DNA from: Psammoneis japonica
Taxonomy: Eukaryota
Assembly: GCA_008632985.1 (NCBI GenBank)
Contig: QPGO01000235.1
Coordinates: forward strand, 62,001-103,048
DNA length: 41,048 nucleotides
Direction: 5' to 3'
The notes under the pieces were generated by a model that worked only from the letters and a program-made list of their open reading frames with translations, ran no database searches and was not told where the DNA came from. Numbering within the stretch: the first letter of the stretch is position 1; each line of letters starts with the position of its first letter. Of this stretch, positions 3,151 to 30,389 are shown one piece after another. The translations under genes were made by a program, and so were the position numbers.

Positions 3151-3342
3151 TGTCAGCCTGTCTGCACCTGTCGCATGATGGACAGACTGGATGCGGATGA
3201 TGGCCAGACCATTCAGACAGACGAGCAGATCTCTCTGAGATCTGCTTCTCACTCTTTTCTTGCCAGCACTCGTGTTGTCAAAGTCCTGGCACTTTGGGGA
3301 GTCTTTAGACCATCGTCACCTCACACCTTTGGTGCTCTGTCA
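3151..3342 (+). repeat. 5' LTR of Copia 1
   Basis: TGTCAG...CTGTCA; 12 mismatches against 9768-9959 by manual alignment. Confidence 0.96.
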
Positions 3343-3352
3343 GGTTGTGGCC
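3343..3352 (+). promoter_or_regulatory. Primer-binding site of Copia 1 (GGTTGTGGCC, resembling the GGTTATGGGCCC half-tRNA-iMet type)
   Basis: Immediately follows the 5' LTR; resembles the copia-type PBS with a TA->TG change. Confidence 0.65.
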
Positions 3353-3519
3353 TTGCGCTGTGCCACAGACCTCTGCGCCAAGCTTTCCATTTTGATTCAT
3401 TTGTTTTGTGAGCCGACAGAGCGAGCCTCATCGTCTGATCCGACAACTTTTTGTCTGGCTTTCCCGGCATTTTTCATGACCGTAGAAACACACCAGATTG
3501 CTGCGCGCGCATGACCAAA

Positions 3520-5880: not shown

Positions 5881-5985
5881 CTCTGGTGCCCCGCCCTCGG
5901 ATTTTCAATCGGGCCGTCGCAGCTAGTTTCGGATCTCCAACGCTGCCCGTTTTCTCCTCACCGAGACACCACTGATGTCAGCGGG

Positions 5986-8900
5986 ATGACCATGAAAGAG
6001 GGACTGACCGTCTCGTCATCTGTCGCTGAAATGCCTCTTTCTTCGCAGATTGACATGGATGCCACCCCCACCACTGCCATGAGGGTGTCATTTGACACTG
6101 GCAAATTGCCGGACGACGACCCTGCTCCTCAAGAAGACATTGTTGATGCTGCTCCTGCTCCGGATCCTTTGGAACAGGGGAGGGAAGACTCAGAAACACC
6201 AGAGTTTGAGGAATGCATTGACCTCACCTGTGATGACATGGCTGTCAAGGATGGCTTTGCTGCCGTCAACTCTGTTCGTGTTGCTCCAATCGACCCCCAC
6301 CAAGTCACCCAATCTCCTGAGCTGGAACTGCTGCGCTCCACTTGCTCTGTCAATGGAGTTAATTTTGCTCCAAATGAGCGTTGTGCTCAGTTGGATGCTG
6401 GTGCCAACATTGCGTGTGCAGGTGACCGTGACCTTCTTCATCGACACCAAGAATTCACCCCGTCCAATCCCTGCCCCCTTGCTGTCAATCCCGCCCTTGG
6501 CCATCAAGCTGTCCCAGTTGGATTCGGATGCCTGCAGATTCCTGCGGAGAACTCTGCCGGACATGTTGACGTTCGTGCACACTGCCACCCACAGATTCAA
6601 TCTACCTTGGTTGATGAACGACTTCTCCTTCGTCAAAATGGCACTCGTCGTGCAGATTGCAACGTTGATTGTATCCTCAAGTTCCATGATCTTGGTGCCT
6701 GCAAGTTTGTTGCACGACACCGACTGCGCAAGAGTCAGGACATCATCATTCATGGGAAGTTGATCAAAGGCAAATGTTTTACTCACCCTGTCATCCTCCC
6801 GGAATCTAACGACGCACTGGATGCATCTGTCAAGCGCCTCAAGACCAGTGACCCTTCTTTTGCCAATGAGTGTGAAGCGGTCTCTGCGTGTGTGATTGAG
6901 ACTTGTCGCACCCACCAACATGAAGCTCTTCGTGATGAACGCAAGTTGATCCCCCGAGCACATCAAGATGTCCCTTTCGAGAAGCATGCTGAGAAGAACA
7001 CTCCAGTCCAGTCTCTCAAGGCCGACACGGAACGTCTTTTATGGCATCAGCGGCTTGGTCACCCGAGTGATCAACACCTTCACAATGCCCACAAATGCGT
7101 GGAAGGTGTCCCCAAGTTTGCTCACGGAACTTCTCCCCTCAACACTTGTCCCACCTGTGCATGAGCAAAGCAGACAAAGGAACCTGCCGGTCCGAACACC
7201 ACTCTTGCTGCCACTCAACCCTGTCAAGGTCTTACGGTTGATTTTTCTTTCTCTGGCCTGCGCTCCAAGAACTCAGAGCGTGCCAAAGACCATGTTGGAT
7301 TGAATGGCGAGACTTGTTGGATCACCATTTACGATCATAAAACGAAGCGTCTCCATGGTGCAACTTGTGTCTCCAAGGCAACCCCTTTGAATTGGCTTTG
7401 CCACTTTCTGGAAGAGCACTCGCCAAAATGTCCCAACAAACATGTCTTCATGGATCAAGGAGGTGAATTGTGTCAAAATCCAGAGGTTTGGCGACTTTTC
7501 GAGGATGACTTTCACCATGCAATTCGTCCTGCGGGAAAAGATGCTTCAAATCAGAGTGGCCCAGTGGAACGCAGTCACTTGACTGTTGCCAATGCCATTC
7601 GGGTGATGCTCATTGGTGCCGATTTACCCACAAAATTCTGGCCATGTGCTTTTCATCATTTCACTCGGATCAACAACGCCGCGCCATCCCGTGGACAAAC
7701 TGCTGCTCCGATTGCTCTTGCCACTGGTCGAAAGGATGACTTCAAGAATTTCCGCACATTTGGTTGTCGAGTTTGGGCACGTGCTTCGAACCATCGTCCT
7801 GCCAAATTTTGCTCGGTCTCTCACAAAGGCATTTTCTTGGGCCATCTTCCGGACACCACCAAGAACATGCTCTGGCATGACACTGAGACTTCCCGTGTCA
7901 AGCTTGCCAAGCATGTTCGCTTCGATGAGGGCATGAACGACCTGTCCCGTGACTCGATTCCTCCGAATGTAGTCCACTTGGAGCGCACTCAAGATGGCAA
8001 AACTCCACCTGCCAAGACCTCAAGCATGATGGCACACGGCACTCCCGACAATGTTGTGATGGATCTCCCCGTGCTGCGTCGATTCTACATCGCCTGTGCT
8101 CGACACATTCTTTCTGTGTCAAACAACCCATCCAACGGATGTTTTTTGCTCTTGCTGCAACTGTGAGCTGCCCTGCACTTGGTGGTGATGCTCGTGACGC
8201 CTGTGCACATTCTCCACGGCCGTCACATCCTGTCCACGTTGCCACAGACAAAGCGCATGCTGCGTGGCACAAGGCTCGTTTTGGCATTGATTTGGACAGG
8301 AGCACGGTCCTTCCGATGCAACATGCACTTCAAGGACACCCAGAGGCCGGCGTGCTCTGGGAGACGCACATCAACGGCATTTTGTCTGATGTGAACTTGC
8401 TCTTTTGCAGCACTGCTCATGACAAATGCATCCATTCTGCCACTTTTGAAGGACACAAGGCATTGCTTCTCCGTCAGGTTGATGATTTCTCCCTCGCTTG
8501 TCCTGAAGAATCCATTGCGATCAAGATCTACGATGAGATTGGTGAGGCCCTCCAACTGGAATTGGAAACTTCTCCGCCCTTCAAGCATCTTGACATGATT
8601 GAAGAATTCAATGGTGTGGATGTCCATCAATGCAATGACTCCATTGGTGTTGCTGTTCACAGCTGTGTGCATCGGGTTTGTGCCTCGCATGGTTGGTCGA
8701 CACCGACGGACGAGGAACTCGATGATGACTGCAAGGCTGCACCTCTCCCGGTCGACTCTGTTCGTGAACTGCACACTGCCATTGGTCCAGCTGAAGGAAC
8801 CCCAGAGCATGCGGAGTTACAACAAGCTGCTGGATTCGGGTGCCGTGCCCCACTTGGTGAATTGTTGCATGCACATGTTGTCTGTCGATTGGATGTTGGG

Positions 8901-9588
8901 CATGGCATCACGACTCTGTCCAAGTTCTCCACTTGTCCTGCTGTGGTTCACTGCGATGCGCTCAAGGGCACATGCAAGCACCTTCGCCATGCCAAACATT
9001 GGGAATTGAACTGCAAGAAGCCTGCCCGAGACCCAAAACTACCCGCCTGCCCCTTCGAACGTCTCACCCCAGACCCAACCTTGCCATCGTTCCCTTGTCC
9101 TGAGTGTGATCATCAACTCGTTGCTTTCTTGGATGCTGCGCATGGCAATGACCTCCGCAACCATTGCTCTACAACTGGCCATGCTTGCATGTTGGCTGGC
9201 GCTGCCATGTCTTTTCGATGTAAGACCCAATCGGCGACAGCTGCGAGTTCCATGGAAGCTGAATTCCACGCGGCTGGCACTGCTGCCAAGCGCATGTCCT
9301 TTGCCTTCGTCACGTCCTGCAAGACCCAGGCTTCCCTCAGACTGAGCCAACCCTGCTGCACACTGACAATGAATCAGCAATCAAGATCATCAACCATTCG
9401 ATCCCGACCGAGCGCGCTCCCGTCACACTGAGATCCAGTTTTTTGTGATCCAAGAATGGAAGGACACGGGCAAGATTGTCACCAGACATGTCCCTGGCAT
9501 TGTCAACCCTGGCGATGACCTTGCCAAGGCTCTTGGCTGGGCACTGCACGCTCGCCATGCTCGACGCATGATGGGACACTGCTGTTGA
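5986..9588 (+). pseudogene. pol: Copia 1 pol: protease, integrase, RT, RNase H; stops, frameshifts and an apparent deletion between IN and RT
   Basis: AQLDAGAN (PR); LWHQRLGHP...CPTC (pre-integrase/Zn); FMDQGGE and NQSGPVERSH (IN); ALQGHPEAG and LLRQVDDF (RT); FLDAAHGND, SSMEAEF, TDNESA, NPGDDLAK (RH). Confidence 0.93.
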
Positions 9589-9758
9589 CACTTTTTTTTC
9601 TGCGGTGGCCTCCCTGCTGCGCACTGCCCCTTTTGTTTGATTGTGTGTTGGGCATGGACACTTGTCGTGTCCTGTGTGTTGTCTCTCTGTTTTTCCTCAC
9701 ATCATCCCTGTTCTTTGGTTTGATCTGCACTCTTCTACATGTTGAGATGTCACAGATC

Positions 9759-9767
9759 AGGGGAGGG
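9759..9767 (+). promoter_or_regulatory. Polypurine tract of Copia 1
   Basis: AGGGGAGGG abutting the 3' LTR. Confidence 0.85.
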
Positions 9768-9959
9768 TGTCAGCCTGTCTGCACCTGTCGCATGATGGAC
9801 AGACTGGATGCGGATGATGGCCAGACCATTTGGACAGACGAGCAGATCTCTCTGAGATCTGCTTCTCACTCTTTTCTTGCCAGTGCTCGTGTTGTCACAG
9901 TCCTGGCACTTTGGGGAGTCTTTAGACCATTGTCACCTCATGCCTTCAGCACTCTGTCA
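9768..9959 (+). repeat. 3' LTR of Copia 1
   Basis: Direct repeat of 3151-3342 followed by TSD ACCTT. Confidence 0.96.
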
Positions 9960-13938: not shown

Positions 13939-15067
13939 TGGCACATGAAGATGCTGTCATCCCAAGTGGTGCCACTCTATTTTGGCTGCAATGCACGTGA
14001 GCCTGTTCTTCGCCACCTGTTTTTCTGTTGATGTTGTTGGCGGTTGTTGGCTGTTTGTCTCGTGACACTCACGTGCAGGTGTGCTGCACATGGCAAGTGC
14101 TGAACATGAGTGTGTGTGTCACAACTCCTTTTGCTGCTGATGTTGTCGCCTGTCTTGTGACACTCAGTCCACTGTGAATTGTCACATTTCTGCATCAGAC
14201 AGGAGACAGGTGTTGATGTGTTGACAGGGAAGCGAATTCGATCTGTGGGGTTCCTTCATTTAGCTGAGAATGTGTTGCTGCTAAATGTGACATTGTTTTT
14301 GTTGCTTTCTTCTCATCAATCAACCCATTTCAGGAAACATGTCCCTCATTCAGGGATCGGGTCTATGGCACCACTGACAGCTTGCCAGAAAAATGCCACC
14401 TTTGGCTGGTTTGCCCCCTGTTTCTGCTGGAATGTCGTGCCACTTCCAGGGAACAGTTGCGACAGTGCATTGTTTGTGGCTTTTTGTCAATTCATCCTTT
14501 TACATTTAACCCACAGAGGCATGTCGCGGCATTTTTGTTGGTGTTTTCATGAAATTAGTTTCTTCAACTGTTGGTTCCAGCATCATTAAAATTCTAGACT
14601 CTAGAGCCCTCTCCACTCTAGCTAGAGCAGGGTGCACAGAGAGCAGCTGTTGAAGCAAAGAGTGCTAGACTGCTGCTCCAGCTCTGGCTGGAGAGCGAGT
14701 GGAGGGCCCGATCATGCAGCAGGTGCAGTGGTGTCTGCAGTGCGACGACCCCTTGGAAAGATTTGTTGCTGACGCGAGCGTGAGAGGATGATTTCAGAGC
14801 TTCTGATTGGCTGAATCGAGGCATTTTTTAAAAACCACGCGGTTTTTGCACTGCTCTCCCGGTGCAAATTCTACATGCGTGAATGCGAGCTCTCAATCAA
14901 ACGATCCAGTGCCATCTGCTGTGAGCCCTCACAGGTTTAGACCGAAAAGGGCAAGAAGAGGAGAAAAAGGAAAGAAAAAGAAAGAAGAGAGAGGAAAAGA
15001 GAAAAAAAGACAAAAGAGACTCTGTTGTTTCCCATTGCAACAAAAGCGTTCAAAAAAGCTGTGTTTT
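13939..15067 (+). repeat. Copy 1 of locally duplicated non-coding block
   Basis: Aligns over its length with 15736-16867 (offset ~1.8 kb). Confidence 0.93.
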
Positions 15068-15735
15068 CTGGACATCTGTGTTCCATTTTCATCATCCCCA
15101 TTTTAGACCCTTTTAGATGCGGAGCTCGTGATCATTTTAGATGATTTTAGATCGATTGTAGAGCTCGACCCTAAAGCGCGACATTTGTTCTACCAGAAAT
15201 GCGCACGCACAATTTACACCTGAAAATGCGCAGGGACCTGATTAAAAAACAGCGTCACGGAGATCCCCTCAGCCAATCAGAGCCAAGCATTTTTAAAAAA
15301 TCGCGCACTTTTGAAGAGGAACACGCATGGAAGCACACCCTGATGCGCATCACACCTTGAAGGGGGCTCCTCACGCGGATTCCTTGTTCCCCATTTTGCC
15401 TCACAACCCAACACGAGCTGAGAATCATCATCTCTCTCTCGTGAACGAAAATCATTGCAAAAACCAGGCCATGATGGCGGTGACAGGCAGTGTTGGACAT
15501 TGTCGCCAATGCGGTTGCCACCAACATTTCCAATGCAGCATGCATCACATGTTGCTCCATCACGTGCATCTGTGAAAAGAGAGGTGAGAATGAATGTAAA
15601 AATGGACAACAACTGCCTTGCACAACATTGCTGTCACTCACACCTGTTGCTCACTGCTTTCGTTGCCATTTTTGTTTTTTCTCAACAGATTTAAGAGCAC
15701 CTGACCCGCCCATTTCGTGGCAGTCTACAATCACA

Positions 15736-16867
15736 TGGCATGCAAAGATGCTGTCATCCCGAGTGGTGCCACTCCATTTTGGTTGCAATGCACGTGAGCC
15801 TGTTCTTCGCCACCTGTTTTTCTGTTGATGTTGTTGGCGGTTGTTGGCCATTTGTCTCGTGACGCTCACACACAGGTGTGCTGTGTGTGGTGAGCACTGA
15901 CCATGAGCGTGTGTCTCGCAACTCCTTTTGCTGCTGATGTTGTCGCCTGTCTTGCGACACTCAGTCCACTGTGAATTGTCACATTTCTGCATCAGACAGG
16001 AGACAGGTGTTGATGTGTTGACAGGGAAGCAAATTTGATCTGTGGGGTTCCTTCATTTAGCTGACATTGTGGTTGCTGCTAAATGTGACATTGTTTTTGG
16101 TGCTTTCTTCCCATCAATCAACCCATTTCAGGAAATGTGTCCCTCACTCAGGGATCGGGTCTACGGCACCACTGACAGCTTGCCAGAAAAATGCCACCTT
16201 TGGCTGGTTTGCCCCCTGTTTCTGCTAGAAAGTCGTGCCACTTCCGCGGAACAGTTGCGACAGTGCATTGTTTGTGGCTTTTTGTCGATTCGTCCTTTTG
16301 CATTTAACCTGCAGAGGCATGTCGCGGCATTTTTGTCAGTGTTTTCATGAAATTGGTTTCTTCAACTGTTGGTTCCAGCATCATTGACATTCTAGACTCT
16401 AGAGCCCTCTCTCTGCTCAAGCTAGAGCAGGGCACGTAGAGAGCAGCTGTTGAAGTAAAGAGCACTAGACTGCTGCTCTAGCTCCAGCTGGAGAGCGAGC
16501 AGAGGGCCCGATCACACAGCAGGTGCAGTGGTGTCTGCAGCACGATGACCCCTCCGAAAGATTTGTTGCTGACGTGAGCGTGAGAGGATGATTTCAGAGC
16601 TTCTGATTGGCTGAATCGAGGCATTTTTTAAAAACCACGCGGTTTTTGCACTGCTCTCCCGGTGCAAATTCTGCGTGCGTGAATGCAAGCTCTCGATTAA
16701 AAGATCCAGTGGCATCTGCTGTGAGCCCTCACAGGTTTAGACCGAAAAGGGCAAGAAGAGGAGAAAAAGGAAAGAAAAAGAAAGAAGAGAGAGGAAAAGA
16801 GAAAAAAAGACAAAAGAGACTCTGTTGTTTCCCATTGCAACAAAAGCGTTCAAAAAAGCTGTGTTTT
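15736..16867 (+). repeat. Copy 2 of duplicated block
   Basis: Direct repeat of 13939-15067, including an identical ~80-bp purine-rich tract. Confidence 0.93.
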
Positions 16868-17501
16868 GTGGTTGCTGCCAAATGTGACATTGTTTTTGGT
16901 GCTTTCTTCCCGTCAATCAACCCATTTCAGGAAATGTGTCCCTCATTCAGGGATCGGGTCTACGGCATCACTGACAGCTTGCCAGAAAAATGCCACCTTT
17001 GGCTGGTTTGCCCCCTGTTTCTGCTGGAACATCGTGCCACTTCCGGGGAACAGTTGCGACAGCACATTGTTTGTGGCTTTTTGTTGATTCATCCTTTTGC
17101 ATTTAACCCATGGAGGCATGTCACGGCATTTTTGTCAGTGTTTTCATGAAAACATTTTCTTCAACTGTTGGTTCCAGCATCATCAAAATTCTAGACTCTA
17201 GAGCCCTCTCCACTCCAGCTAGAGCAGGGTGCGCAGAGAGCAGCTGTTGAAGCAAAGAGTGCCAGACTGCTGCTCTAGCTCCAGCTAGAGAGCAAGCAGA
17301 GGGCCCGATCATGCAGCAGGCACAGTGGTGTCTGCAGTGCGATGACCCCTCCGAAAGATTTGTTGCTGACGCGAGTGTGAGAGGATGATTTCAGAGCTTC
17401 TGATTGGCTGAATCGAGGCATTTTTTAAAAACTGCGCGGTTTTCACACTGAATGCGAGCTCTCAATTAAAAGATCCAGTGACATCTGCTGTGAGCCCTCA
17501 C
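16868..17501 (+). repeat. Copy 3 (partial) of duplicated block
   Basis: Matches ~16068-16731 and ends at GTGAGCCCTCACA. Confidence 0.9.
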
Positions 17502-17533
17502 ACACAACAGGATCTTGTTGTTTTTGTCGTTTG

Positions 17534-17758
17534 TGTCAACACAGCACAAAATCATGCGCAATGCGTGCATGCTGCACTTGCGCACAAGATTTCCCGCCAT
17601 CGGTCATTCTCAACTTTTCTCACAATTACAACATCTGGTGCAACAAGACATTGGCAGCTTTGCTGATTGCACCGTCATTGTTGGCCCTCTTTGCCAGCAA
17701 TGCGCACGCCATTTGACCTCAGTCGACTTTTCCTGACTCTCAGACGAGAGTTGTCGCA
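17534..17758 (+). repeat. 5' LTR of Copia 2
   Basis: TGTCAACACAGC...GAGAGTTGTCGCA; same length and ends as 37519-37743. Confidence 0.92.
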
Positions 17759-20700
17759 GCATCAGAGGCCGCAACATGGTGTTGTTCACTTTCCTTTGGA
17801 AATTTTGGAACATTAAATTTGACAAATGCACGTTTTTTTAGTTAAATTCTGTTTCAAATGTGACAGTCAAGTTGAATTTGTTGTTGCCTTTTCATGTCTG
17901 TGATTGTCACCATTTTGTTTTGATTTAAATTTGCCAAAGACTTTCAACAAATCTTACATTGTTGAACAATGCATTTTGTGTTGTTCAATTTATCACATGT
18001 TTGTGGAAACGTTTGCTTTGACAGTGCTTTTCAATGGCTTCACCACAGCCTTGCATCACCACAGACAAGGGTGTTTCTTGTGTGCCCAAGTTGGCCACAT
18101 GAGCATTTGGCTCATTGTTTCCACCTGCACCCACCAGTTTTCCAGTCAACAGCTCCCTGCCTGCACTTTGGCACCTTTTCTACATGCGCAAAACTCTGCT
18201 CATTTCACAACAGCACACCCTCTCCCCAAAAAGCATTTGATGAGAGGGTGCACTGTTTTGTGATTCCTGTGCATTCTACGTGAATTGGCATCTGACTGTT
18301 GGCCATGGCGTCTAACAACTTTACCCCGTCTCACAACGAGGTTGACCCGGACCCTTCTTTCCAAATTTCCAAGGACTGCAATTTTGATGAAACAGAACAT
18401 TTCACCAATGGTTTTGGATTCAAATTGTTCCAACCCAAGCTCAAAAGCACAACTGCAATGCGTGCCTCCAAAAAGCAGTTTTTGGAGTCAACAAATTGGA
18501 CCCCCTCTCCAGAATTCCTTGCTCTTCCCTTCCTTTGCCACAAGCCAAAGTTGCGCCGTGTTCCACATGTTGCCGAAGTCATCCGCACCAACAACATTTT
18601 AAGGAAAACTCTTGGCTGTCCCAACATTTGGTCCTGCATCATGACTTGAGGTTGGTCCATTGAGAAATCCCGCCAACTGAAAGGCAAACATGTCCTGTGA
18701 TGTAAAAATCTCAAGGAGGCTCTCCATTTCTCCAAAACATCCGGAGAGACAGAAAAAGAACAGCAGAACCGTGTGCTTCTCCACCATGACATCCATGCGA
18801 TGGTAGAATTTGTTCACACGATCATTGCCGGAGATGACCCAAATGTATCCGGCAAGCCTTGTTTCCATTTTTTACGGTGCAAAAGTCTCCAAAGTTTGAT
18901 CAACGATCGAGCCCAAGACCTCCACAGTGCCCATTTTGTCACTGACATTGTCATGCGTTACGTTCAGCACAAACCCAAGGACATGGACCACTGGTTCCTG
19001 AAGATTTTTCGTCATGCCAACACCCAAAAGGAATGGCGCCTCTTTGTCAATGGCTTTCTGGTTGTGTGCGATGCCAATGATCCTGGTTCCCAGGCAGATG
19101 AGATCAAGGGGTTCCTTGCTGACCCAACCGGCAACACACAGAACATGGTGTACAAAGAAAAAATCAATTCCATGTTGAATCACAAATTTGGGAAGCATTG
19201 TCCCAAGGAGCAAAATGGCATCCGACCTGGGTGCAGCAAGCAGCTCACAATGCTTCATTGCAGATTGCGCAATCAGAGGGCCGACTGCATGGAAGACGAC
19301 AACAAACGACATTACAAATCTAAAACCAAACGCAAAATTAAGAGGATCTGCAAAGATGGCACCTGTTTGTACAATGGCAAGCACCCCCCCCACCTCCCGC
19401 CTTCTGCCTTTCTGCCTGCAACTGTCGTCTCAACGTCTCTTCTCACACCCCATGATTGTTCATGCCCCGCCAGAGCCTTCCTTGACCGTCCCCAACAAGA
19501 AGGCCAAGCCTGCATCTCGCTTGAAACCAGCACCTCCTTTGCTGTCTGGTGATGTGCCATTGTCTGGGGAGGCACACCAGACTCTCACCGCCAACCTTCC
19601 GTCACCCTCAGAAATTGTGGACAACTAAAAACCTGCTCCCACCTCCAAAGGTCCTTTGTCCAAACCTCATTCCTCTCCTCCATCTGTTTTGGCAAATCTT
19701 CCTGCGGTCACGTCTCCTCCCAGCAACCCCAACGACATGTCATGGCTGGACAAATTTACACTCCGCGATTGCTTTGACCCGTCCAAGTGTCGGCCCGCCA
19801 CCACTGAGGAAGTTTCTTCTCATTTGTCACACCTGCACATCATTGACAAAGCCACAGACACTGATCGGGTGCTTCATCATTCCGCCGCTGACTTTTACCT
19901 GGCGGACAACTTGCGGGAAAACTGGCACACGTTCTCAAACAATGCTCCTTTGTGTGATTCCACCAATGCATCTTGTGTCCGAACCGAGTGCCCTCCTAAC
20001 CTTGATCACTTCTCCAAGGAACTCTCCATCGCCCGACAAGCCAACTCATTCCTGCCCCTCTTCCATTTATTCTGTTGAAGGGCAAGTCCGATTTGAAACA
20101 GGACGGACTGGTTGCAGTTCGAAATGGCGAAGGACGCAGGACAAAGTTTGGTTGTGCAGGGCAAGCGCATCACCCAAAGAAGCCGGGTTCTGCCAAACTT
20201 GCCAAACCCAAGGGTGCCTGTGGACTTCATGTTTTTGAGTCCAATGATGACTTCAATGTAAACAAGTCATCCAAAATCAAGGCAATGGCAGCCGACATTC
20301 TCGACTCGATTCAGCTGTGCAAAAATGAGGTGGATCTGTGGAAACTGAGCAATCCCCCACCATTTAACTGGTCGCTTTGGTGCAAGGAGTGCTCAAAACA
20401 GTTGGGCAAGGACATGGGCTGTCTTTTCTTTAAATGCAAGGATGTCACTGTGCAGGGATTGTGCATTTCCCGGGGTCAAGACTGTGATGGTCATCATGAC
20501 ACAAAAAACTGCATCTGGCGTTGACACAGGAAGACAGCCGCAGGTTGCTTTTTTTGTTGTGGATGCCTTTGGTGACATCTGGTCCTTCAAGGTTGTTGCC
20601 AACAGCAGAGCCACCATTGGTGGATGCTGCAATGACCAGCATGACATGAAGCCTGTGCTTGCTCGCATGCACCACAATTGAGCTCAGCTTGATTTTGCAC

Positions 20701-21845
20701 TTAAAGACTTGGACTTGCAACACAATGGTCCCACCCACCCCGATGTGTTGCTTTCCAGCAGCACATTCAAGCATCTTTCCCTTGATGACAACAGGCTGTG
20801 GGACAATGTTCCAATTGGTGGAGGGGGCAATTCTTCATGCATTGAGGTGTGCATGGATTGGCTCAAGTTCCCAACATTCCCAGTCAGGGACTTCCACTTG
20901 TCTGCCCCAGTCACAGTGCTCTGCCGTTTCAAGAACATTGTGTGCAGATCTGGGCCCGACCCAAAACGAGTCATCCGTTTGGCAATCCATGCAAGTCATC
21001 CCAATGGATGTCACCGATTTTACTGTGTGGGGGGCATGTGTCTTCCTGACCTTTGTTGCAAAGGTGCTGACCCGTTTGTGAACTTTGCCGATTGCTTGAT
21101 GAACACATTTGGCATGTTGTTCGGTGACCCACAGGTTGGAAGGATCAGCCCCACCAATTTGACGTGTGAGAAATTTTCTGATGCATTTCTAGACCCGAGG
21201 TGCAGAGGCACCGCGAATGACCTTGTTGACAAAATGGTGGAAGAAATCCATGCTGCACTTCTCTGGATGAACGACAATGTTGACACCAATGAGTTCTGTC
21301 CCAACTTAATGGAACAACGGTGCAAGGCGGCGTGTGATGCTTGGGCAGACCGGGGAGCAGATTTCAGTGAGATTCATCTCATGTTGGTTCTGCAATGTCT
21401 GGTGCTGGCCGGTGTTGCAGTGAAGGACCATCCAAGACTCAACCACATTGTGTGTCCTGTCTTCAATTCCGGAGCTGCTGCACAACTTGGGCATGTCAAA
21501 CCCCAAGAAAGGCTGCTCATGCACCAAAGGACATCATCTGAGACAGGAACCAAAGAGCATGGTTGGAACGGAACTGAGCACAAACTTTGTGAGAATTCCA
21601 ACAAAAGCTGAACCTGCATTTTTGATTGTGTTTTCCACGGACCCTGTTCAGGACAAGACCTGTTTGCCTTCTCTCCCTCCCGCCAGCATCTCTGCAAGCC
21701 ACACGGGTTGACCGAGCACGGAATTTTGGAGTGTGTTGACGACGACCCCAACATTTACAAATCACCAGACAATGCGGAATTGGGCTCATCTGTGTGTGAA
21801 TCAGCCGGGCAAACAGATGGTGCCAGTGTTTTCTCTGTCAGTGAT

Positions 21846-22037
21846 GGACTTGCCGCAGACAACGAACTGAGCTCATTGTCTTTGGAGGAGTCTGGACTTG
21901 CCGCGGACAATGAACTTGGGTCATTGTCTTCAGAGGAGTCTGGACTTGCTGCGGACAATGAACTGAGCTCATTGTTTTTGGAGGAGTCTGGACTTGCCGC
22001 ACACAATGAACTAAGCTCATTGTCTTTGGAGGAGTCA
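21846..22037 (+). repeat. 4 x 48-bp in-frame tandem repeat (GLAADNELSSLSLEES)
   Basis: GGACTTGC units start at 21846, 21894, 21942 and 21990. Confidence 0.95.
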
Positions 22038-22098
22038 TTGTCGTCAGAGGAATGCTTGTGTCATGATTCTGAATGCCGTGTTCCAACTGTCGCGGCAG

Positions 22099-22302
22099 AT
22101 TCTGGTGTCGTTAAGTCGCTTGATCAAGAATCCGATGAAGAAGATTCAAGTTGCGTCTCCGTGTCAGATCGACCCGAGCCACCTGTCCTTTCACAAGTGC
22201 ATTCTGGCATCATCAAGTTGCTTGATCAAGAATCTGATGAAGAAGACTCAAGTTGCATCTCCATGTCAGATCGACCCGAGCCACCTGTCCTTTCACAAGT
22301 GC
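22099..22302 (+). repeat. 2 x 102-bp in-frame tandem repeat (acidic 34-aa unit)
   Basis: ATTCTGG...TTCACAAGTGC units start at 22099 and 22201. Confidence 0.95.
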
Positions 22303-22321
22303 AAGATTTTGACTTGGACGC

Positions 22322-23311
22322 ATGTGTGAGTGCCATTTTTGTGCAAGTCCATCAACCGCCGAAGAACTCCTGGAATTGTTTGGCGGCTTGTTTGTCACAA
22401 AAATTTGTCTGCAAAATGACTCATTCAGTGCTTTTGTTTCACATTGTCATGTCATCCGCAGACAAGACGGAGGTGCAAATGTCCTGTGGCTTTGCATGAC
22501 GAGGCCCGTCCTTGCAGGAAATCTGACATTGGATGAGATGTGTTTGGACCGTGGCGTGGAGGCTGTCCGATCCACTCAGCAAAGAAGAGATGAGGCAAGG
22601 TGTCAAGTCGTTAAGGATCTTTACACACACTCAAATGTTTGTGCATGCACTGTGTCCCTGCAGGATGGCAGCCCCACTTGTCACTTGAATTGCAACATTT
22701 CTGCTAAAAAGTTTGCCCAAAGGGTCAAGACGCGGTTTGGAAGAGAGATTGATTTTAAGAAAAGCAGGTTTGTTCAGATTTGCATGGACTGCTGCTGGAT
22801 GCAAAAAGGGGAGTGGCAGCAGTTGACATTGGGAAATCACTTCTTTCGCAAAAACCCAAGGGAGGTGATGGAAACGTTGTTTCATCCAAAGCTCCAGAGG
22901 TGCCGCGTCACAGTCCCATGCACCATGTGGTCACTGACCCAAATCGTGCGCAATTTGGATCACATCAAGGAACATGCACTGGTGCTGGGTGTGACACAGG
23001 AGATGGCAAGTGCCGAAGTGATGATCTGCCAGGCATCACATTTGGGAGTCACGGAACAAGAAATTTGGGAAACGCTGCCAGATGCAGAAGCCAAGGCTGT
23101 CCCAGATTTCCTCCGAAATTGTGGATGTGACAATCCGAACGAACCGTTGCCGTTCCTGTCCTTTGAGAGGAGAATGCCCAATTGGAGGGACGAGGTCTAC
23201 AGATGGCCCACCAGGTTTTTGCTCTGCCAGTTGCCAGACAGATTTGTGGGTAGATTGTCAAAGCAGGCAAGTGATTGTTGTCTCTGTCAATGTCCTTGTC
23301 ATCCAGATTGA
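22322..23311 (+). pseudogene. Cargo ORF, putative Rossmann-fold SAM-dependent methyltransferase-like domain; may be the C-terminus of the preceding gene
   Basis: 329-aa ORF with strand-like motifs NVLWLCM, CTVSLQD, HLNCN, FVQICMDCCW (DYYW if back-mutated), RVTVPC. Fold assignment is inference. Confidence 0.45.
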
Positions 23312-23346
23312 ATTTCTGTTGCTGTTTTTGGATGCTCACATGCTTT

Positions 23347-26300
23347 TCACCTGCTCTTGTGAAACAGCTCTCCCCATGCATTTCTGCGGTCTTGAACTGC
23401 CCAAACATGCTTTGTCCTGTCGTGTGTCTCCGCAATGCCAGGTTGCTCCTCACACACTGACAATTTGTCGCCAACAGCATCAATGGGCACCAAGCAAAGC
23501 TTTGGTGAGTGCACTGTTTGTTCAGCAGTGGACAAATCATTGTTTTTCACTTGGTCCAATTGCCAGTGACTGACCAGGTTGGTGTGTTGCATTCGTTCCA
23601 CCATGGCACGCTTGTCAGGCTGGTGCGTGCAAGGGTGAACGACCGCGCGCAACTCACCATCGCTTTCCTTTGGAAGAAACAGTGAAGTCTTGATGGGAAG
23701 AACAAATCCTCCCTTGTTGCACCAAAATTGACATTCACCCAGTCATGAACGGGTCCTTCACTGTTGCAGTCTGGGTGTGTGCGGCAAGTGTCATTCCCGT
23801 TCTTGTTGCGGAATTCTGTTTTGCAAACAAGGTCACCGGAGAAATTGCCTCCTGCTCCAACACAATCCCTCCACTTCTTCTGAAAGAAATGGAGCAGGAC
23901 CGGCGCACCTGACAATGTTTTTGCTTTCTGTGCCAGAGAAAGCTCACTGCCTTGTTTGCCACACTGCAGGTGATGGAAAAGGTGCCACCACCCAGTGTGT
24001 GACTGTCAGCACCACGTGTCATGTCCTTTCGTCCCAGCTCCAATGTGATCCATGGGTTCGCCGACAACGCACGGTGCACCATCATTTGGTCTTGCATTCA
24101 TGACGCAACCTGTCCCAGGAAGATGTCGAAGCTGCACTGTTGTGCCGTGGCCAACGGCAATTTGAAAAAATCCTTCAGCAAAGATTCACCAAGACTGGCG
24201 TCAAAGTTCATGGCATGATGGAAATGACATGGAAAGATTGGAAGGTGAAGAAGCTCGTGAAGCTTTTGCAGCTTCCACCCAGCCCCTTTGTGCCAAGGGG
24301 AGCAACACACGATGTGAGACACCAGCAACCAAATTTTCTTTGTGACTTTGTTCAGTTCAGTTGTGTTGGTTGGTGGGTCACCGAGTCGACACCAAGCATG
24401 GAAGGCAAGCAGGTCTTCCAGCACCTGGACGCATTGCCTGACACTGCAGCCAAGGGGCTGTCTCTTTTTTTTTTGTTTTCCGTTGATTGTGGCTGACACC
24501 TTCATCCTCGGACTCATGCGGTCGGTGTTCCACAGAATTGTCAGGATCCATTTCGTGCGGATCATCTGTTCTGTTGTTGGGATGATGCTCATTGCCGGTG
24601 TCGCACTCTTCCGGTCTGTGACAGCAATTGATTTGGAATCTAGGAATCCTGTGCCCAGACGGCAATGGAGGATCGTCTTTGTCTTCCTGGAGAAAACAAG
24701 ATTCGCAGGCATCTCTGCCTTCCTTTGTCAGCAGCAACAGATGAAAAACAAAGGCCATGCCCGCCCAATGATGTGAGTTGAGGCAGGTGAGTGATGTGGC
24801 CCCGCCCTTGAAATGGGTTTGTAAGAAAGATTTGCAAGTGGATTGGTGATTGCCAAACATTTTTTCCACTGGTCTGTCAACCTTGCTTCTCACTGAGTTT
24901 GTCATGCTGTTGACAAACACACCAACCTCCCTTTTTAAAGTTCTGTTTTCAAACAGGTGCATCATGTTGCTTGCCGTGGAAAGGGTTGCTCCAAAGGGCT
25001 GTTCTCCAAAATCTGCATCAAGCAAGCAGTTGGTGGGCACATTGTGCTGCTTCATGCAATGAAGGTGCTGTGGCCAGTGGTTTCTTTCTAGCTTGTTGAG
25101 ACTGGGATCATTTGCGTGGTTCTGGACTGATAAAATGTCACCAGCCCTGACGAGTTCAAACTCCTTCCAAGGGTCGTCAAGCTCATTGCATCTGGTCATG
25201 CAAAACCTGAAACAACGTTGGTGACAGTTGTTGGTGCCACACCTGCCCACAAGGCAGTCACCACTCTTCGTGTCTCCATTGATTAGGATCATTGTTGGAA
25301 CAACACGAAGGAAGCGGATCTCGTCACCGCTTTGAACTTTGAACACAGCAGCAAAAGCCACCATTTTCCACCATGTCCAGCAGAGGCTGGAGCATTGTTG
25401 CCAACACCTTGTGACAATCATGGATGCTTTGGCCCTTCTCAGACTTTCAAGTGTTAGATTGCTGTTTTGCAGCAGAGGAGGACATTTTCTCAAGGTCAGG
25501 AATGCAGCCAAGGATGCACCACTCAGATCTGTCATGCCATTGGTTGTGGGTGACATGAGCCAACGCAGCTGTGACGGGTTCTCCGCAGGAAGATGACATG
25601 GAGGCTGTTTTCCCAGTCTTGTCAATGTAAGTTGTCAAACACTCAAGGAACTGTTTAAGAGGATCCAAGACCCTGGCTGTGTGTGTCCTTCTGCACCACT
25701 CTCCGGCCAAAACACACTTGTCATGCTTTCCCTTTGAGACATGCATTCCGCATGGATGGGCGGGGTTGGCAAGATTGTTTGGGCTGGCCCATGTGCAAGC
25801 ATCCAGCATGAACGACTCCCACACATCTTTGAAATTCCATCGCGGAACTTGTGCTGTTGTCTCACCGCGTTCCCCATTGATGCTGTCAAGGTCGACTGGA
25901 ATCATCTTGCACTCCAGACCAGGAAACGATTTGTGAAGGTTCTCCACTGGTCTGCTCTGGCGAGGGATTTGCATGCCAAGATGGAAGGCACTGCCACAGT
26001 GTCTTTCGATGAACTTGGCAATCTTGTTGCACAGGTGAAGCGGTGCTCTGCAGTCATCTAAGAGCTTGCACAGCTCTGCACAAGCACCGTTGAGGTTGCT
26101 GAGAGAAGGCATGTGGGCAAACGCGTCTTTGGCTGGGCTCCGGTGCACCTCACCCAATTGACTGTCTTCACTCCGCGATTCTTTGTCTGAGATGTTTGAT
26201 TTGTCTGTCCATTGTGACATCCGGCAACACATCAAATGAGTTGTCCAGTGACTCGCTTGCTTCGGAAGACAAGTCCAACGGCATGTGATGAATTTCCTTG

Positions 26301-26776
26301 TGATGGCACTGCAACCCAAGAGCAGAGATGTCATCATCAAACGGTGGTGACCATGGTGCATTGGTTCTGTCATGTTTGATGGCGGCGGGCCCAAGCCTGA
26401 TGTTCGCAACAGACACACCACGTCTGGACCGTCTCAGCCGTGGCAGTGACGAGTTGTCTGATGAGGAAGAAATGTCGAGATCAGCCGACCCACTTCTGCG
26501 AGAGAATTCGTTGCTGACATGGGAAGTTTTAGCCGCAATGCCAACAGACAATGCCGGCAATGGGCAGGTTGTGACTGCCTCACAATGTGACTTGTTTGAC
26601 CTCTCTCGAGCAAATGAAAAACATGGTGGGTTGTGATGGACATGGGTGAGCATCCTTTTGAAGGATCGTTTGCAACGCGGACATGCGACCGCACCATCCT
26701 CACCCTGCCAACCAGTGTTTCCTTCCATTTGTTGTTTCAGCAGGTTTGTGGGCTCCGCTGACACATGTGTGTTCAA
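23347..26776 (-). pseudogene. Plavaka-family DDE transposase with N-terminal zinc finger, frameshifted
   Basis: CPRCKRSFKRMLTHVHHNPPC; LTTYIDKT; LINGDTKSGD...C..C; ASNMMHLFE; GWKLQKLHELLH...NFDASLGES; CRTHPDC...GPVHDW (YRxHPxY...GPxYDW type). Confidence 0.85.
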
Positions 26777-27098
26777 ATGGCCTCACCGGTTCAGTTCGTG
26801 AAAAGTGACATGGTTGTGGCGGCAAGCAAGGAAAACACGACATGAATTGGTGCAAAAACATTGGTGCACTGCGTTGTTCCCATCAATGAAAACATCAACA
26901 GGTGAGAATGAATCGAGTGCATTGGGATCAATGATTGCTTTGAACACGAATGACTGGCTGCAAAGGTTGTCATTCTATGGAAAGGAGAAAATAAGTTGTG
27001 ATGTGACAGTGGCAAGCAATGTGGGCACACCTCACCGGGATGCCAGATGGCAAGAACACACCTCACCATGATGCGTCAGGGCAAGAAGTCTGGCAGGG

Positions 27099-28279
27099 GT
27101 GCACCCACACCTGCCACAGCAGAAGACCCAAACATTGCAATCAACAATGAATGCTGTTGCACAAAATGACCGTTTGACGGTGCATTGGCCAAACGACTGC
27201 TGGCAGAAATTTGATTCTTTGACAAACATGACCAAACTTGGAAGGAAACAAATTATGGAAGCGGAGCATGAGGCAGCTTTTGACAAATTGGAGTGTTTGA
27301 TAAAATCAACAGACTCAGGCAGGATGATGCATTGTGATGACACGGGTAGAAGTTGGTTCGAGTTTGAGAGCAGCGACCGTGCGGCAGACCCTTGCCTGCG
27401 CCGTGACTCCATGGACCTGTTTCACATGTTGAATGATGACGACATCCAAGAAAAGTGGGAGGAACTGTGGAAGAAGAGGTGCAACCACATGGTTCTTTGG
27501 GTGTGGGACCATGTGAGGGATTGGAGCGGTGAAGAAATTGAGTGCATGCATGCCAGCACATGCATGTTCTCAATTCATGATAACCTGCCCTGGGTGAACA
27601 GCGTCGTCAACCGTGGGACAAATGCTCACACCAGTGCAAGGAGCATTGGGACTGTGTTGCGACTCACCAAGACAGGCAAGGAAGGATGTGCTGTGTCAAC
27701 AGCACTGGCCACAACAAAGGAGAGAAAGAGCTGATGGATGAATTTGCAGCGGGTGCGTGTGATGATGCAAAACCAGTCATTGACAGGGGAGACATTTTGA
27801 GATTGAGACAGAAGTCAAGCATCAGCTTGCTGACTTGTGGAATGGACAAGACAGGCACTTGCAGACTGTTGGGAGAAACATCAGTGAGGGGAGGCAATCA
27901 GGGACTGGTGATGGACAAGAAGGGCATTGTTTGCGATGCATTGAAACTGGCGAAGTGGTTCCAGCATGACATCCTGCGAGACTGCCATGAAAGACTTTGG
28001 TTCTGTGAGGAAATGGAGTTCTTCCTGTTGTCTCCAAGGAGAGTCAATGAATGGATGCTGGACATTGTCACAAAGGAGGATGGTGAGTGGGAGAACTTTC
28101 ACAGCAGGAGAGAGGAAATGCATTGGGTGGAGAGACGTCGTTGCGTTGAAGTTAATGAATTCGTGAGAATGGTCGGAGCAGAGATGAGGGCTTTCACCCG
28201 CATGACTGATCATTCCAACGTCGGGCGACACAGCAGGTTCAGAGTTACAAGGCTGCAGGGAGATGACAAATTGGACTAG
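27099..28279 (+). pseudogene. Transposon accessory gene of unknown function (one frameshift)
   Basis: Overlapping ORFs 27099-27734 and 27686-28279 with globular-protein-like composition, divergent from the transposase and inside the TIRs. Confidence 0.55.
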
Positions 28280-28699
28280 AAAAAATGATTTGGCGCCAAA
28301 AACAATGGATGTGCTTGGGCCCCAACAGCAAACCGGAGTGTCATTGAAGCAGGTGAGGGGTTTGTTCATTGTGTTTTATGGGTGCACGTTTTCACAATGA
28401 TGTTTTAAGTGAAATGCTTGTGCATGCTGTTTGCACTGTGGAAGTGGATTTTGACATTGCAGCAAAAGAGAGGTTTGAACTGGAATTTGCAGGGATTCAA
28501 AATTTTCAAAAGACAATGAGGAGTGGCAAAATAAATGAATTGTGCACACATTGAAAGATTTGGCTAATTCTCCATTGTGTTGCATTTGAGAAAAGAGAAT
28601 CATTGGTGGAAAGCACAAGAGTTTTAGCGTTAAAGAGAGGTTTGAAAATTTCCCAATGGTGAAATTAGCTGGGGACACAAGGCATGGAGCCACCCACAA

Positions 28700-29942
28700 T
28701 TGGCAACAGCGGCACAGGCAATGGCAAGGAAGAAGAGTGAAGAAAGTGCGGGGGTGGCTGGAGATCAACCAACCAGCCCAAGGCTGACCACGGTGTTGGT
28801 GCGGGTGGGAGCCACTGGGGATCACCAGTCTGTGAAGAGAGAGGTAGAAGAGATGGTGAGGAAGGAACTGTTCCCGAAGACAAAGTTCCTTGTCAAGGCA
28901 GACATGGCAAGCAGTGGCAAAGTGTCACAGCTCATCAGGAAAAGACAGCCGGTGGCAACCACAGCAAGCAAGATTGGGCAGGAGCGTGGGAGGACTGGGC
29001 AAAGAAGTGCGTCATGCATGCAATCAATGCAAAAAGGAGCACGGTCACTCAGGCGATCAAGAACAATGCAATGGCTGGCAAGTGTTTTGTGGTGCACGGC
29101 ATGTTGAGTGCAGTTGTGCTTGACGCTGCTGCACCTTAATTTGCTGAAGTCGTGTTGACAGAGAACAAAGCCGAGGAGATGCACAGTCAGAAGAAACTGG
29201 CAGCAAGAGGTGGAGGAGGGAAGAAGAGCAAGAAGAGGAAGAAGAATGATCAGACAGAAGATGAAGAGCCGTTCCTGGTGACTTGGGAGGAGGAGACAGT
29301 GACGACGATTGTGGAGGACAAGCGCAAGAACAAGGAAGCACATGCTTGGTTCTACAAAAACATCCTGAAATTCATGAAGAGTGCCACAACATGGAGAAGG
29401 AAGGCAGAGTTGGGTGAGACAAAGGCAACTGGTCTGGCTGCAGTGAGCAACAAGGCTCTGGGGCTGTTGACATTGGAAAACTGCTGGAAGAGTTGGGAGC
29501 ACAAGGCACGTCATGTGACAAGACTGTTGGAGCGGGGAGGGGCTCAGACGAAGAGGATGAGGAAGAGTCGGAACCAACACCCAAGTGCACAGACCCGTTG
29601 AGGCAATGCAACTCATGGAAGGATGCAGGGATGTTGCGATTCAACAAACTGCTTGCGGAAGTAAAGAAAGACAGGTTGAGTGAGGAGGGCATGCAGTTCA
29701 ACACATGGCACAGCAAAGGCAAGAAAAGGAAGAGTGAAGAAAGAGGCAAGGGATCAAAAAGACCGGTGGAGAAGGAGGCAAGAACACAGGCAACAACAGA
29801 GCTTTCAAGTGACAACAAGGAGAAGGATGAAGAGGTGACAGACAAGAACAGAGGAGACGAGGACAGCAAGGAGGAGGATGAAGACAGTGATGCGGGAAGC
29901 GAAACGAGTGCAGATGCAGGCAATGAGCAAGCTGCGGCATGA
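28700..29942 (+). pseudogene. Transposon accessory gene with predicted intron 29078-29161 and acidic tail
   Basis: VRKELFPKTKF...AINAKRSTVTQAIK; VSNKALGLLTLENCWKSW; KCT...SWKDAGMLRFNKLLAEVKKDR. Splicing GCAAGT...CTTAAT...ACAG joins the frames. Confidence 0.65.
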
Positions 29943-30377
29943 AAAGGCAGCGGAGGCTTTTGTTAGTGTGAGAATGGAAAGCAGACAAGCAATGTAGCAG
30001 GTTTCAATCTAAACAGTTGTGAGGTTTAACAAAGTGTTTTGTTGATCATTGTTGCATGACCCAACCTTTCATTTGACAACCAGTGTTTGCAACAGAAGGT
30101 TCTTTAAACCCGCAAAATGGAATGATCAGCATCAATTTGTTAATGAACCAAACGTCTTCACATTAAAAAGGTAAAAAGGGACGGCATTCTGACAGTTGAG
30201 GGTTGGATCCAATGAGGAGGGTTCCCATGGTGAAAAATGGCGTGCTGTGATGCACAATAAAAAATCACGGTCTGCCCAACTCTCTCAAAATGAAACCATT
30301 GCATTTGTGCCCACAATGGCATTAAAAATCACCTGTGAGAAGGGTGGTCAGGATCACTGTAATTCGCACTCTGATGA

Positions 30378-30389
30378 GGTTAGGAGCCC
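30378..30389 (+). promoter_or_regulatory. Primer-binding site of Copia 2 (GGTTAGGAGCCC), displaced from its LTR by the Plavaka insertion
   Basis: One mismatch from the GGTTATGAGCCC-type PBS; abuts the LTR terminal CA once 17760-30378 is removed. Confidence 0.75.

What the first reader, a model, noticed from the sequence alone, without database searches (positions are those of the whole stretch)
20075..20640. TET/JBP-like dioxygenase motifs with an apparently shortened double-stranded beta helix
Seen: RRTKFGCAGQ, a helical stretch, then DVTVQGL...GHHDTKN (HxD at 20492-20500), and after one stop and one frameshift KTAAGCFFVVD.FGDIWSFKVVANSR. The order recalls TET/JBP (FG strand; strand + HxDxxN; terminal RxSxVxYxR strand). 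No distal His is visible and the spacing is short, so it may be a reduced or non-canonical version.
Basis: inference. Interest (0 to 1): 0.7.

Follow-up and report, generated by a model that had tools for sequence, protein, structure and literature searches.

The report
Rewired TET-like enzyme in diatom transposon
A broken copy of a diatom jumping gene carries a DNA-oxidising enzyme of the TET type whose barrel seems to be wired in a new order, with the third iron-binding histidine placed about 200 residues before the other two ligands instead of after them.

Summary
The motifs are real. They belong to a decayed passenger gene of a 12.6-kb PlavakaB-type DNA transposon (17760-30376; CATCA..TGATG ends, 2-bp target duplication) with dozens of TpA/CpG-mutated copies in a diatom genome. 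HxD is near-invariant in outside homologues (His 70/71, Asp 70/71). An AlphaFold model (pLDDT 95.5) matches only 2OG/Fe(II) oxygenases, with TET2 (Z 9.1) and NgTET1 (Z 8.1) first. The barrel does not look reduced; it looks rewired. I read that segment as relocated strands IV-VII supplying the third ligand (about 0.8). This is inferred: no distances could be measured, and sequence profiles do not link the segment to TET/JBP. The 2OG-binding Arg is absent and a Lys is conserved instead. A fused C-terminal domain has an invariant Cys recalling amino-acid:DNA transferases (inconclusive). Likely role: oxidising 5-methylpyrimidines (5mC or T) in DNA for the element. The window copy is dead.

The parts
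17760..30376 (.). PlavakaB-type DNA transposon, 12.6 kb, multi-copy, mutated at TpA and CpG
   Evidence: 10 near copies (L021-L040) match it at 80-90%, most up to one or both ends; ends and flanks; TpA o/e 0.10
17760..17767 (+). left 8-bp terminal inverted repeat CATCAGAG; target duplication AG at 17758-17759
   Evidence: the duplicated 2 bases differ by insertion (AG, TT, CT, CA, TA, AG in the 6 copies with both ends read, window included)
30369..30376 (+). right terminal inverted repeat CTCTGATG; target duplication AG at 30377-30378
18296..19400 (+). N-terminal region of the long passenger ORF, no Pfam match; related (26%, E 2e-28) to the same region of the little-mutated sister family
19830..19937 (+). 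N-segment: four predicted strands (model 34-39, 44-49, 53-59, 65-69), read as relocated barrel strands IV-VII
   Evidence: Tyr173 52/55, Leu178 53/55, His183 56/56
19926..19928 (+). invariant His (P0001 His183), proposed third iron ligand, upstream of HxD
   Evidence: 56 of 56 outside rows with a residue; CAC in 37 of 40 genome copies; position
20046..20047 (+). 37-nt deletion with frameshift in the window copy, relative to the open copy L009
20138..20152 (+). R-x-x-F-G strand (Arg 65/71, Gly 68/71)
20438..20461 (+). E-x-x-T-x-Q-x-K strand, read as strand I (the window copy has Lys for the Glu)
20492..20509 (+). H-x-D-x-x-N, strand II, two iron ligands
20522..20524 (+). premature TGA; the codon is CGA 12, CAA 13, TGA 12 among 40 copies
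20531..20609 (+). strand III, D-x-x-G turn, strand VIII (W-S-x-K-x-x-x-N-S-R); +1 frameshift at about 20548
20886..21700 (+). fused conserved C-terminal domain with E-F-R-L, G-A and E-x-x-L-C-E motifs (Cys 42/42; codon 21588-21590); stops at 20679 and 21609 in this copy
22343..23308 (+). further ORF or exon of the element, no Pfam match
23596..26305 (-). Plavaka transposase, broken, convergent with the passenger gene
   Evidence: sister copy PF18759 E 0.0038, below cut-off; 48-62% identical to 5 of the 8 loci of this genome that pass the cut-off
27072..28276 (+). accessory ORF of the element, no Pfam match
28673..29680 (+). accessory ORF of the element, no significant Pfam match
17533..17759 (+). 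5' LTR of the copia element into which the transposon inserted (3' LTR 37518-37744)

Best explanation
A dead copy of a transposon-borne, multidomain DNA-modifying enzyme whose core is a TET/JBP-type Fe(II) oxygenase with a rewired double-stranded beta helix. Shown: the fold resemblance, the conservation pattern, the transposon setting and past purifying selection. Inferred: strand III turns directly into strand VIII (they are neighbours in the major sheet, by general knowledge of the fold), and strands IV-VII were moved to the front of the domain, so the iron triad reads His183...His384-x-Asp386. A Lys on strand VIII probably replaces the Arg that binds 2-oxoglutarate. Inferred function: the intact enzyme oxidised the 5-methyl group of pyrimidines in DNA to help the element against host silencing or mutation. 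My odds on substrate: 5mC 0.45, thymine 0.35, other (6mA, CMD1-like chemistry) 0.2.
For: His183 56/56, His384 70/71 and Asp386 70/71 are the most invariant columns of the domain. The gap in spacing (29 versus 65-74 residues in 120 of 120 phage TET/JBP) is about 37 residues, and the N-segment is 36. One confident domain: pLDDT 95.5, pTM 0.90, N-segment 97-98. TET2 Z 9.1, rmsd 4.2, 201 aligned; NgTET1 Z 8.1, rmsd 4.0, 164 aligned; 37 of 50 rows start at model residue 69-95, after the segment. Folded alone, the segment keeps three strands but its E-x-Y strand loses strand status, as expected for strand VI, which pairs with strand III. Four of 50 rows for the fragment are cupin or jelly-roll proteins (three by title, one by recall), including the lowest rmsd (2.2 A, 43 residues, no gap in the chain). 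dN/dS 0.15 between two subfamilies. The other families of this genome that I read keep the upstream His and HxD. TET-bearing fungal Plavaka all belong to PlavakaB (PMC12730594).
Against: No coordinates were available, so the His-His-Asp geometry was not measured. Profile-profile tests against 120 phage TET/JBP found nothing for any segment, and a forced slide put His183 on the HxD His, not on the distal His. No Pfam Tet_JBP match in 87 members. Foldseek was not significant. The Z values are near what the tool calls common (7-8), with rmsd 4-5 A. 13 of 50 VIA rows, including TET2, CcTet and CMD1, start inside or before the N-segment, so part of it may overlay their N-terminal parts. Fragment matches are all Z 3.8 or less and the top four are not cupins. 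The covariation scan was noisy, with the best ladders in the wrong orientation. Two long homologues left out of the alignment (P0110, P0120) show no N-segment at 12 bits. The R-x-S Arg is absent. No activity data.
Confidence: 0.68

Rival explanations
1. Truly reduced barrel: strands IV-VII and the distal His were lost, the enzyme uses a two-ligand site or is only a DNA or base reader, and the upstream His has a separate structural role.
For: No sequence link of the N-segment to canonical strands IV-VII; no R-x-S Arg; the TET2, CcTet and CMD1 alignments begin inside the segment.
Against: His183 is the most invariant column (56/56). The segment length equals the missing length. One strand of the segment needs the distant core to stay a strand.
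Confidence: 0.14
2. Two-step thymine-modifying fusion: the rewired oxygenase makes 5-hydroxymethyluracil and the fused Cys/Glu domain, a distant amino-acid:DNA transferase (aGPT-Pplase) relative, processes it further. The modified T either shields the element or feeds the TpA-to-CpA mutation seen in repeats.
For: Cys 42/42 and Glu 33/37 in E-x-x-L-C-E. The best local hhalign match to both phage clades falls on their E-x-x-L-C motif, and three motifs line up in order with clade 2. Cys and Glu are essential in clade 2 enzymes, and TET/JBP genes occur beside them in phage contigs (PMC8989533 passages). Repeats here mutate at TpA.
Against: The scores (16.6-18.6) are within or barely above the column-shuffled range (maxima 18.2-25.0). 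No Pfam ADDT or HMUDK_hel match in 47 homologues. No kinase domain was found among the element ORFs scanned. TpA loss also affects the two copia elements, which showed no such gene, and a preprint favours host adenine deamination for the same signature in another alga.
Confidence: 0.13
3. A 2OG/Fe oxygenase of another branch (AlkB/FTO-like demethylase of 6mA or of RNA) or of CMD1-like chemistry with ascorbate, not a 5-methylpyrimidine hydroxylase.
For: FTO Z 7.0, ALKBH3 Z 6.7 and CMD1 Z 6.4 lie within about 2-3 Z units of the TET rows; the 2OG Arg is missing; CcTET also oxidises 6mA (PMC12730594 section 3.4).
Against: The three best rows are TET enzymes in VIA-align and CcTet in Foldseek; H-x-D-x-x-N is shared with 120 of 120 phage TET/JBP.
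Confidence: 0.12
4. Chance motifs in decayed repeat DNA, with Cys and His created by TpA mutation of Tyr codons.
For: The window copy is broken, and 4 of 5 Tyr-rich columns do read Cys or His in the copies.
Against: His183 and His384 are His in unmutated outside homologues and never alternate with Cys in the copies; 137 homologues; dN/dS 0.15.
Confidence: 0.01

Closest known systems
TET/JBP dioxygenases (human TET2 9hxv, NgTET1 5cg8, CcTet 7vpn/8jkk, CMD1 7cy4; Pfam PF12851)
   Same: Best structural matches; R-x-x-F-G strand, H-x-D-x-x-N, and a terminal strand ending in Arg.
   Different: Only 29 residues from HxD to the last strand; invariant His upstream, none downstream; no R-x-S Arg, conserved Lys instead; no HMM or profile match; fused to N- and C-terminal domains without Pfam names.
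TET-bearing PlavakaB transposons of fungi, PE-type TET/JBP (Kojima 2025, PMC12730594)
   Same: CATCA..TGATG termini, 2-bp target duplication, Plavaka transposase, very divergent TET-like cargo seen mainly by structure.
   Different: Host is a diatom ('diatom' occurs 0 times in that paper's main text). The PE type has HxE with a downstream His; this family has HxD with an upstream His.
Amino acid:DNA transferases / aGPT-Pplase clades 1 and 2 (PF18723, PF18724; phage M6 gp55, gp51)
   Same: E-x-x-L-C motif near the C-terminus, with an invariant Cys in our family; they occur beside TET/JBP genes in phage contigs (PMC8989533).
   Different: Similarity not significant; fused here to the oxygenase; no 5hmU kinase seen.
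Dinoflagellate TET/JBP thymine hydroxylases (PMC11572971) and phage T-dioxygenases (PMC13229309)
   Same: Divergent TET/JBP enzymes; show that thymine in repeats can be the substrate.
   Different: The dinoflagellate enzymes keep HxD and H...R in canonical order and serve host silencing; no relation to this family was tested beyond the Pfam and phage-profile comparisons.
TpA hypermutation of integrated foreign DNA in Bigelowiella natans (bioRxiv 10.64898/2026.01.13.699255)
   Same: Same TpA to TpG/CpA spectrum as in the copies here.
   Different: Here it hits DNA transposons and copia elements of a diatom, together with CpG loss; 'diatom', 'TET' and 'thymine' occur 0 times in that text.

Membership tests
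TET/JBP (PF12851) | 2OG/Fe(II) double-stranded beta-helix fold closest to TET/JBP | tested here: met
   TET2 Z 9.1 (rmsd 4.2, 201 aligned), NgTET1 Z 8.1, CcTet Z 7.3; all 50 listed rows are 2OG/Fe-type oxygenases; Foldseek not significant
TET/JBP (PF12851) | conserved HxD | tested here: met
   His 70/71, Asp 70/71
TET/JBP (PF12851) | distal His downstream of HxD, strands I-VIII in order | tested here: not met
   no conserved His after 384 up to residue 490; spacing 29 versus 65-74
TET/JBP (PF12851) | complete 2-His-1-carboxylate triad in space | tested here: inconclusive
   indirect support only; no coordinates were returned and the complex predictor was not available
TET/JBP (PF12851) | R-x-S 2-oxoglutarate-binding Arg on the last strand | tested here: not met
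   hydrophobic residues two before Ser414, Lys 57/70 two after it; Arg and Ser 120/120 in phage controls
TET/JBP (PF12851) | match to the family HMM or profile | tested here: not met
   no Tet_JBP row among the 25 of 49 families shown for 87 members at E up to 1, none for the first member; 0 of 47 long homologues at E up to 0.1; hhalign probability 1.5% or less
TET/JBP (PF12851) | oxidation of 5mC or T in nucleic acid | not testable with these tools
   needs biochemistry
PlavakaB transposons | 5'-CATCA..TGATG-3' termini | tested here: met
   definition from PMC12730594 section 3.2.2
PlavakaB transposons | 2- or 3-bp target-site duplication | tested here: met
   2 bp in 6 of 6 copies with both ends read
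PlavakaB transposons | Plavaka transposase (PF18759) | tested here: met
   sister copy E 0.0038, below cut-off; 48-62% identity to five over-cut-off loci; no tree built
aGPT-Pplase / ADDT (PF18723, PF18724), tail domain | conserved Cys with nearby Glu | tested here: met
   Cys 42/42, Glu 33/37
aGPT-Pplase / ADDT (PF18723, PF18724), tail domain | significant profile similarity | tested here: inconclusive
   motifs align in order but the scores are about those of shuffled columns; templates shallow, and the clade 1 reference row carried extra upstream residues
aGPT-Pplase / ADDT (PF18723, PF18724), tail domain | helix-hairpin-helix glycosylase-like fold | not tested

The most novel reading that the evidence does not exclude
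Diatom Plavaka transposons encode a topologically rewired TET/JBP oxygenase fused to an amino-acid:DNA-transferase-like domain: a single-chain thymine oxidation and hypermodification enzyme in a eukaryotic transposon, tied to the TpA-specific mutation of repeats either as armour against it or as its chemical source (T to C through oxidised thymine rather than A deamination).
Probability: 0.12. Interest if true: 0.93.

Novelty: new variant of a known kind. Interest (0 to 1): 0.74.

Why it matters
The strand order of the 2OG/Fe barrel and the order HxD...H are treated as fixed (general knowledge), and family HMMs depend on them. A natural family with strands IV-VII moved to the front would be missed by those searches, as this one is by Pfam, so TET-like enzymes may exist in lineages scored as lacking them. 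It also extends TET-bearing DNA transposons from fungi to diatoms, whose transposons are silenced by CG methylation (PMC9998398 passages), and supplies a candidate enzyme in a genome whose repeats undergo an unexplained TpA mutation. A little-mutated family member with a long open frame makes all of this testable.

Tried and rejected
Pfam on 39 window ORFs, on 5 copy ORFs and on 47 and 87 family members: no Tet_JBP row seen. Word-based homologue search with the mutated P0001 region: none of 802 candidates. PDB sequence searches with both alignments: nothing relevant. ESM Atlas: no usable hit, twice. PF12851 in the own genome: no match, but the controls did not ring either. hhalign of eight segments and a forced slide against 120 phage TET/JBP: not significant; the template was narrow (Neff 3.5). 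Covariation on 87 rows: noisy; one top pair (model 62-273) fits the His-beside-Asp register, and the top three ladders join the expected strand pairs or near them but as parallel, so I give it little weight. Foldseek against viral models: nothing significant (one JBP1/TET row at E 0.32); Foldseek with the fragment: nothing. Pattern scans for relatives: none in JGI metagenomes or IMG/VR, so the hosts and contexts of the 137 outside homologues stay unknown; the six rows show only metagenome and read-assembly sources. No RNA holder was listed. The complex predictor was not available. A viral origin was considered and set aside: inverted termini, target duplications and a Plavaka transposase, and no viral hallmark among the ORFs scanned with Pfam (PHROGs not run). 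Literature: 9 searches that ran plus one search listed no paper on a permuted TET/JBP or a diatom TET-bearing Plavaka. The 2013 survey by Iyer and colleagues was not held under the id I recalled, and I did not see their 2009 and 2014 papers or any supplements; these could already list such proteins.

Full report
Observation. The window is strongly depleted in TpA (o/e 0.06-0.22 in 2-kb bins) with CA and TG in excess.

Setting. The stretch 19950-20750 has 45 matches in the 91-Mb own genome, from 40 of 63 candidates scored. Flanks of 20 copies were fetched; the 10 near copies delimit an element at 17760-30376. It ends in CATCAGAG and CTCTGATG with a 2-bp target duplication that differs between insertions, in 6 of 6 copies with both ends read. 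The minus-strand gene at 23596-26305 is a Plavaka transposase: a sister copy hits PF18759 at E 0.0038, below cut-off, and the window gene is 48-62% identical to five of the eight genome loci that pass the cut-off. CATCA..TGATG ends with 2-3-bp duplications define PlavakaB, the group that holds all TET-bearing fungal Plavaka (PMC12730594; I read the abstract, passages and sections 3.2.3, 3.4 and 4.2). The host has many full-length silicon transporters, which points to a diatom. The element sits at the LTR/primer-site junction of a copia element.

State of the gene. Sister copies are open across the motif (L009, 966 aa, kept as P0001; L010, 867 aa). The window copy has a 37-nt deletion at 20046, the TGA, the +1 base and stops at 20679 and 21609, so it is dead. 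Copies are mutated at TpA and CpG: at the 18 sites where any of 15 near copies has TA, the copies carry TA 0.38, TG 0.32, CA 0.30; four of five columns rich in Tyr among outside homologues read Cys or His in the copies; TpA o/e is 0.10 in the element and 0.46-0.48 in three transporter genes. Between majority codons of two subfamilies (15 and 12 copies) dN/dS is 0.15, so the protein was under selection. A protein search gave 95 matches, from 90 of 213 candidates scored, in at least four families; those I read keep the upstream His and HxD. One family (C160, C267) is little mutated, has the same termini and has an open frame of at least 1341 aa.

Family. A profile of 16 natural copy segments found 137 proteins among 1.84 billion representatives. 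I aligned 83 of them, leaving out short fragments and the three longest proteins. Counting rows with a residue: His384 70/71, Asp386 70/71, Asn389 65/70, Arg422 65/69, Glu366 69/72, Gly270 68/71. There is no conserved His after HxD (next best His column 0.43, and it is upstream). From His384 to Ser414 there are 29 residues in 61 of 67 rows, against 65-74 in 120 of 120 phage TET/JBP proteins fetched as controls. The hosts of the outside homologues could not be determined.

Fold. AlphaFold2 on P0001 118-490 with 87 rows gave pLDDT 95.5 and pTM 0.90. VIA-align against 48,161 chains listed 50 rows, all 2OG/Fe-type oxygenases by title or by my recall: TET2 Z 9.1 (rmsd 4.2, 201 aligned), NgTET1 8.1 (4.0, 164), CcTet 7.3, FTO 7.0, ALKBH3 6.7, CMD1 6.4. 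Foldseek ranked CcTet first to third but at E 0.04-0.07. The tool warns that a best Z of 7-8 is common; the uniform list, not the Z value, carries the case.

The missing ligand. The most invariant column of the domain is His183 (56/56; window 19926), at the start of the last of four strands (model 34-69) that precede the core. This segment is 36 residues long and about 37 are missing after HxD. Its pattern, hairpin, then E-x-Y strand, then His at the start of a strand, is what strands IV-VII look like (recalled). In the canonical barrel strands III and VIII are antiparallel neighbours (general knowledge), so the D-x-x-G turn seen here can join them directly. 37 of 50 structural alignments begin only at residue 69-95. 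Folded alone, the segment keeps strands 1, 2 and 4 but the E-x-Y strand is lost, as expected if its partner is strand III. Four of the 50 rows for the fragment are cupin or jelly-roll proteins, three of them gap-free in the chain and one with the lowest rmsd, but all Z values are 3.8 or less. Among 143 proteins the segment precedes the core in the 52 that show both once; it follows an HxD only in one tandem protein; most others are fragments, but P0110 and P0120 are long and show no segment at 12 bits. Against this reading: profile comparisons with the phage controls found nothing, 13 of 50 structural alignments, including TET2, CcTet and CMD1, start within or before the segment, and covariation was noisy. 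I could not measure distances. I put the rewired triad at about 0.8.

Co-substrate site. The R-x-S Arg (120/120 in controls) is absent; the last strand reads W-S-x-K-x-x-x-N-S-R with Lys 57/70. If Arg422 is the final Arg of R-x-S-x-V-x-Y-x-R, the Lys occupies the Ser position and could bind the 2OG carboxylate. This is inference.

Tail domain. 48 proteins with at least 200 residues after the core share a second domain with E-F-R-L, G-A and E-x-x-L-C-E motifs; the Cys is 42/42. From memory this resembles aGPT-Pplase/ADDT enzymes, in which a Cys and a Glu are essential and which occur beside TET/JBP genes in phage contigs (PMC8989533, passages). The best local hhalign match to both phage clades is that motif, and three motifs line up in order with clade 2, but the scores are about those of shuffled columns. 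It is a lead only.

Mechanism. Most likely the intact element expressed an Fe(II) oxygenase that hydroxylated 5-methylpyrimidines in DNA. Oxidising 5mC would counter CG methylation, which silences diatom transposons (PMC9998398, passages) and is the role proposed, untested, for fungal TET-bearing transposons. Oxidising thymine has precedent in dinoflagellates and phages (PMC11572971 and PMC13229309, passages) and would fit the tail domain. The TpA signature matches that reported for Bigelowiella natans, where host adenine deamination is proposed (bioRxiv 10.64898/2026.01.13.699255, abstract and passages; its supplements are closed). It also hits copia elements here, so it is probably a host process, and a link to this enzyme is speculation.

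Membership and novelty. It works like a TET/JBP enzyme by fold and HxD, but fails three defining tests (downstream His, R-x-S, family HMM), so I file it as a separate TET/JBP-like variant. The element meets the PlavakaB tests. My literature searches (listings only, plus passages of PMC4738411) showed no report of a permuted TET/JBP or a diatom TET-bearing Plavaka. The library lacks most subscription papers, the main surveys by Iyer and colleagues were not seen, and I opened no supplements. Earlier scan notes held nothing on this protein and two notes on TpA loss in this genome.

Verdict. Real, transposon-borne, dead in this copy; new variant of a known kind; interest 0.74.

Noticed in passing
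window 1-41048; L001-L020, L061-L080, L125-L129: Repeat-wide TpA to TpG/CpA mutation beside CpG loss. Two young copies (C160, C267) differ at 151 TA-type and 152 CG-type steps, against 37 other transitions and 127 transversions.
   Followed up: partly
window 17533-17759 and 37518-37744: LTR pair (81%) of a copia element; the Plavaka element inserted at the LTR/primer-site junction, so it is the younger of the two.
   Followed up: partly
window 3151-9959: A second copia element with 192-nt LTRs at 94% identity and gag-pre-integrase, SH3 and RVT_2 matches.
   Followed up: no
L113 / L125 (G000:C160) and L114 / L129 (G000:C267): Little-mutated 13.9-kb sister family with the same termini, an open frame of at least 1341 aa and a distant convergent Plavaka-like transposase.
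   Followed up: partly
L085, L086 versus L087, L089-L092, L094: Two Plavaka loci that did not match the window's transposase have CpG o/e 0.10-0.15, while the six that match it have 0.56-0.70. This could hint at CpG protection in the latter lineage, or be an age effect; their cargo was checked only in part.
   Followed up: no
L140:5068-7137; protein P0015: Tandem duplications of the oxygenase domain, a possible route to strand rearrangement.
   Followed up: no
window 3565-3968: A roughly 400-bp repeat found at about 70% in L023, L034, L043 and L044, in L023 and L034 inserted inside the Plavaka element; possibly a small non-autonomous element.
   Followed up: no
window 13939-17505, 21845-22036, 39529-40209, 1193-1595: Arrays of about 1.8-kb, 48-bp, 184-bp and 166-bp repeats.
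   Followed up: no
G000:C38:226311-230342: A 1511-aa open frame with three silicon-transporter units in tandem.
   Followed up: no
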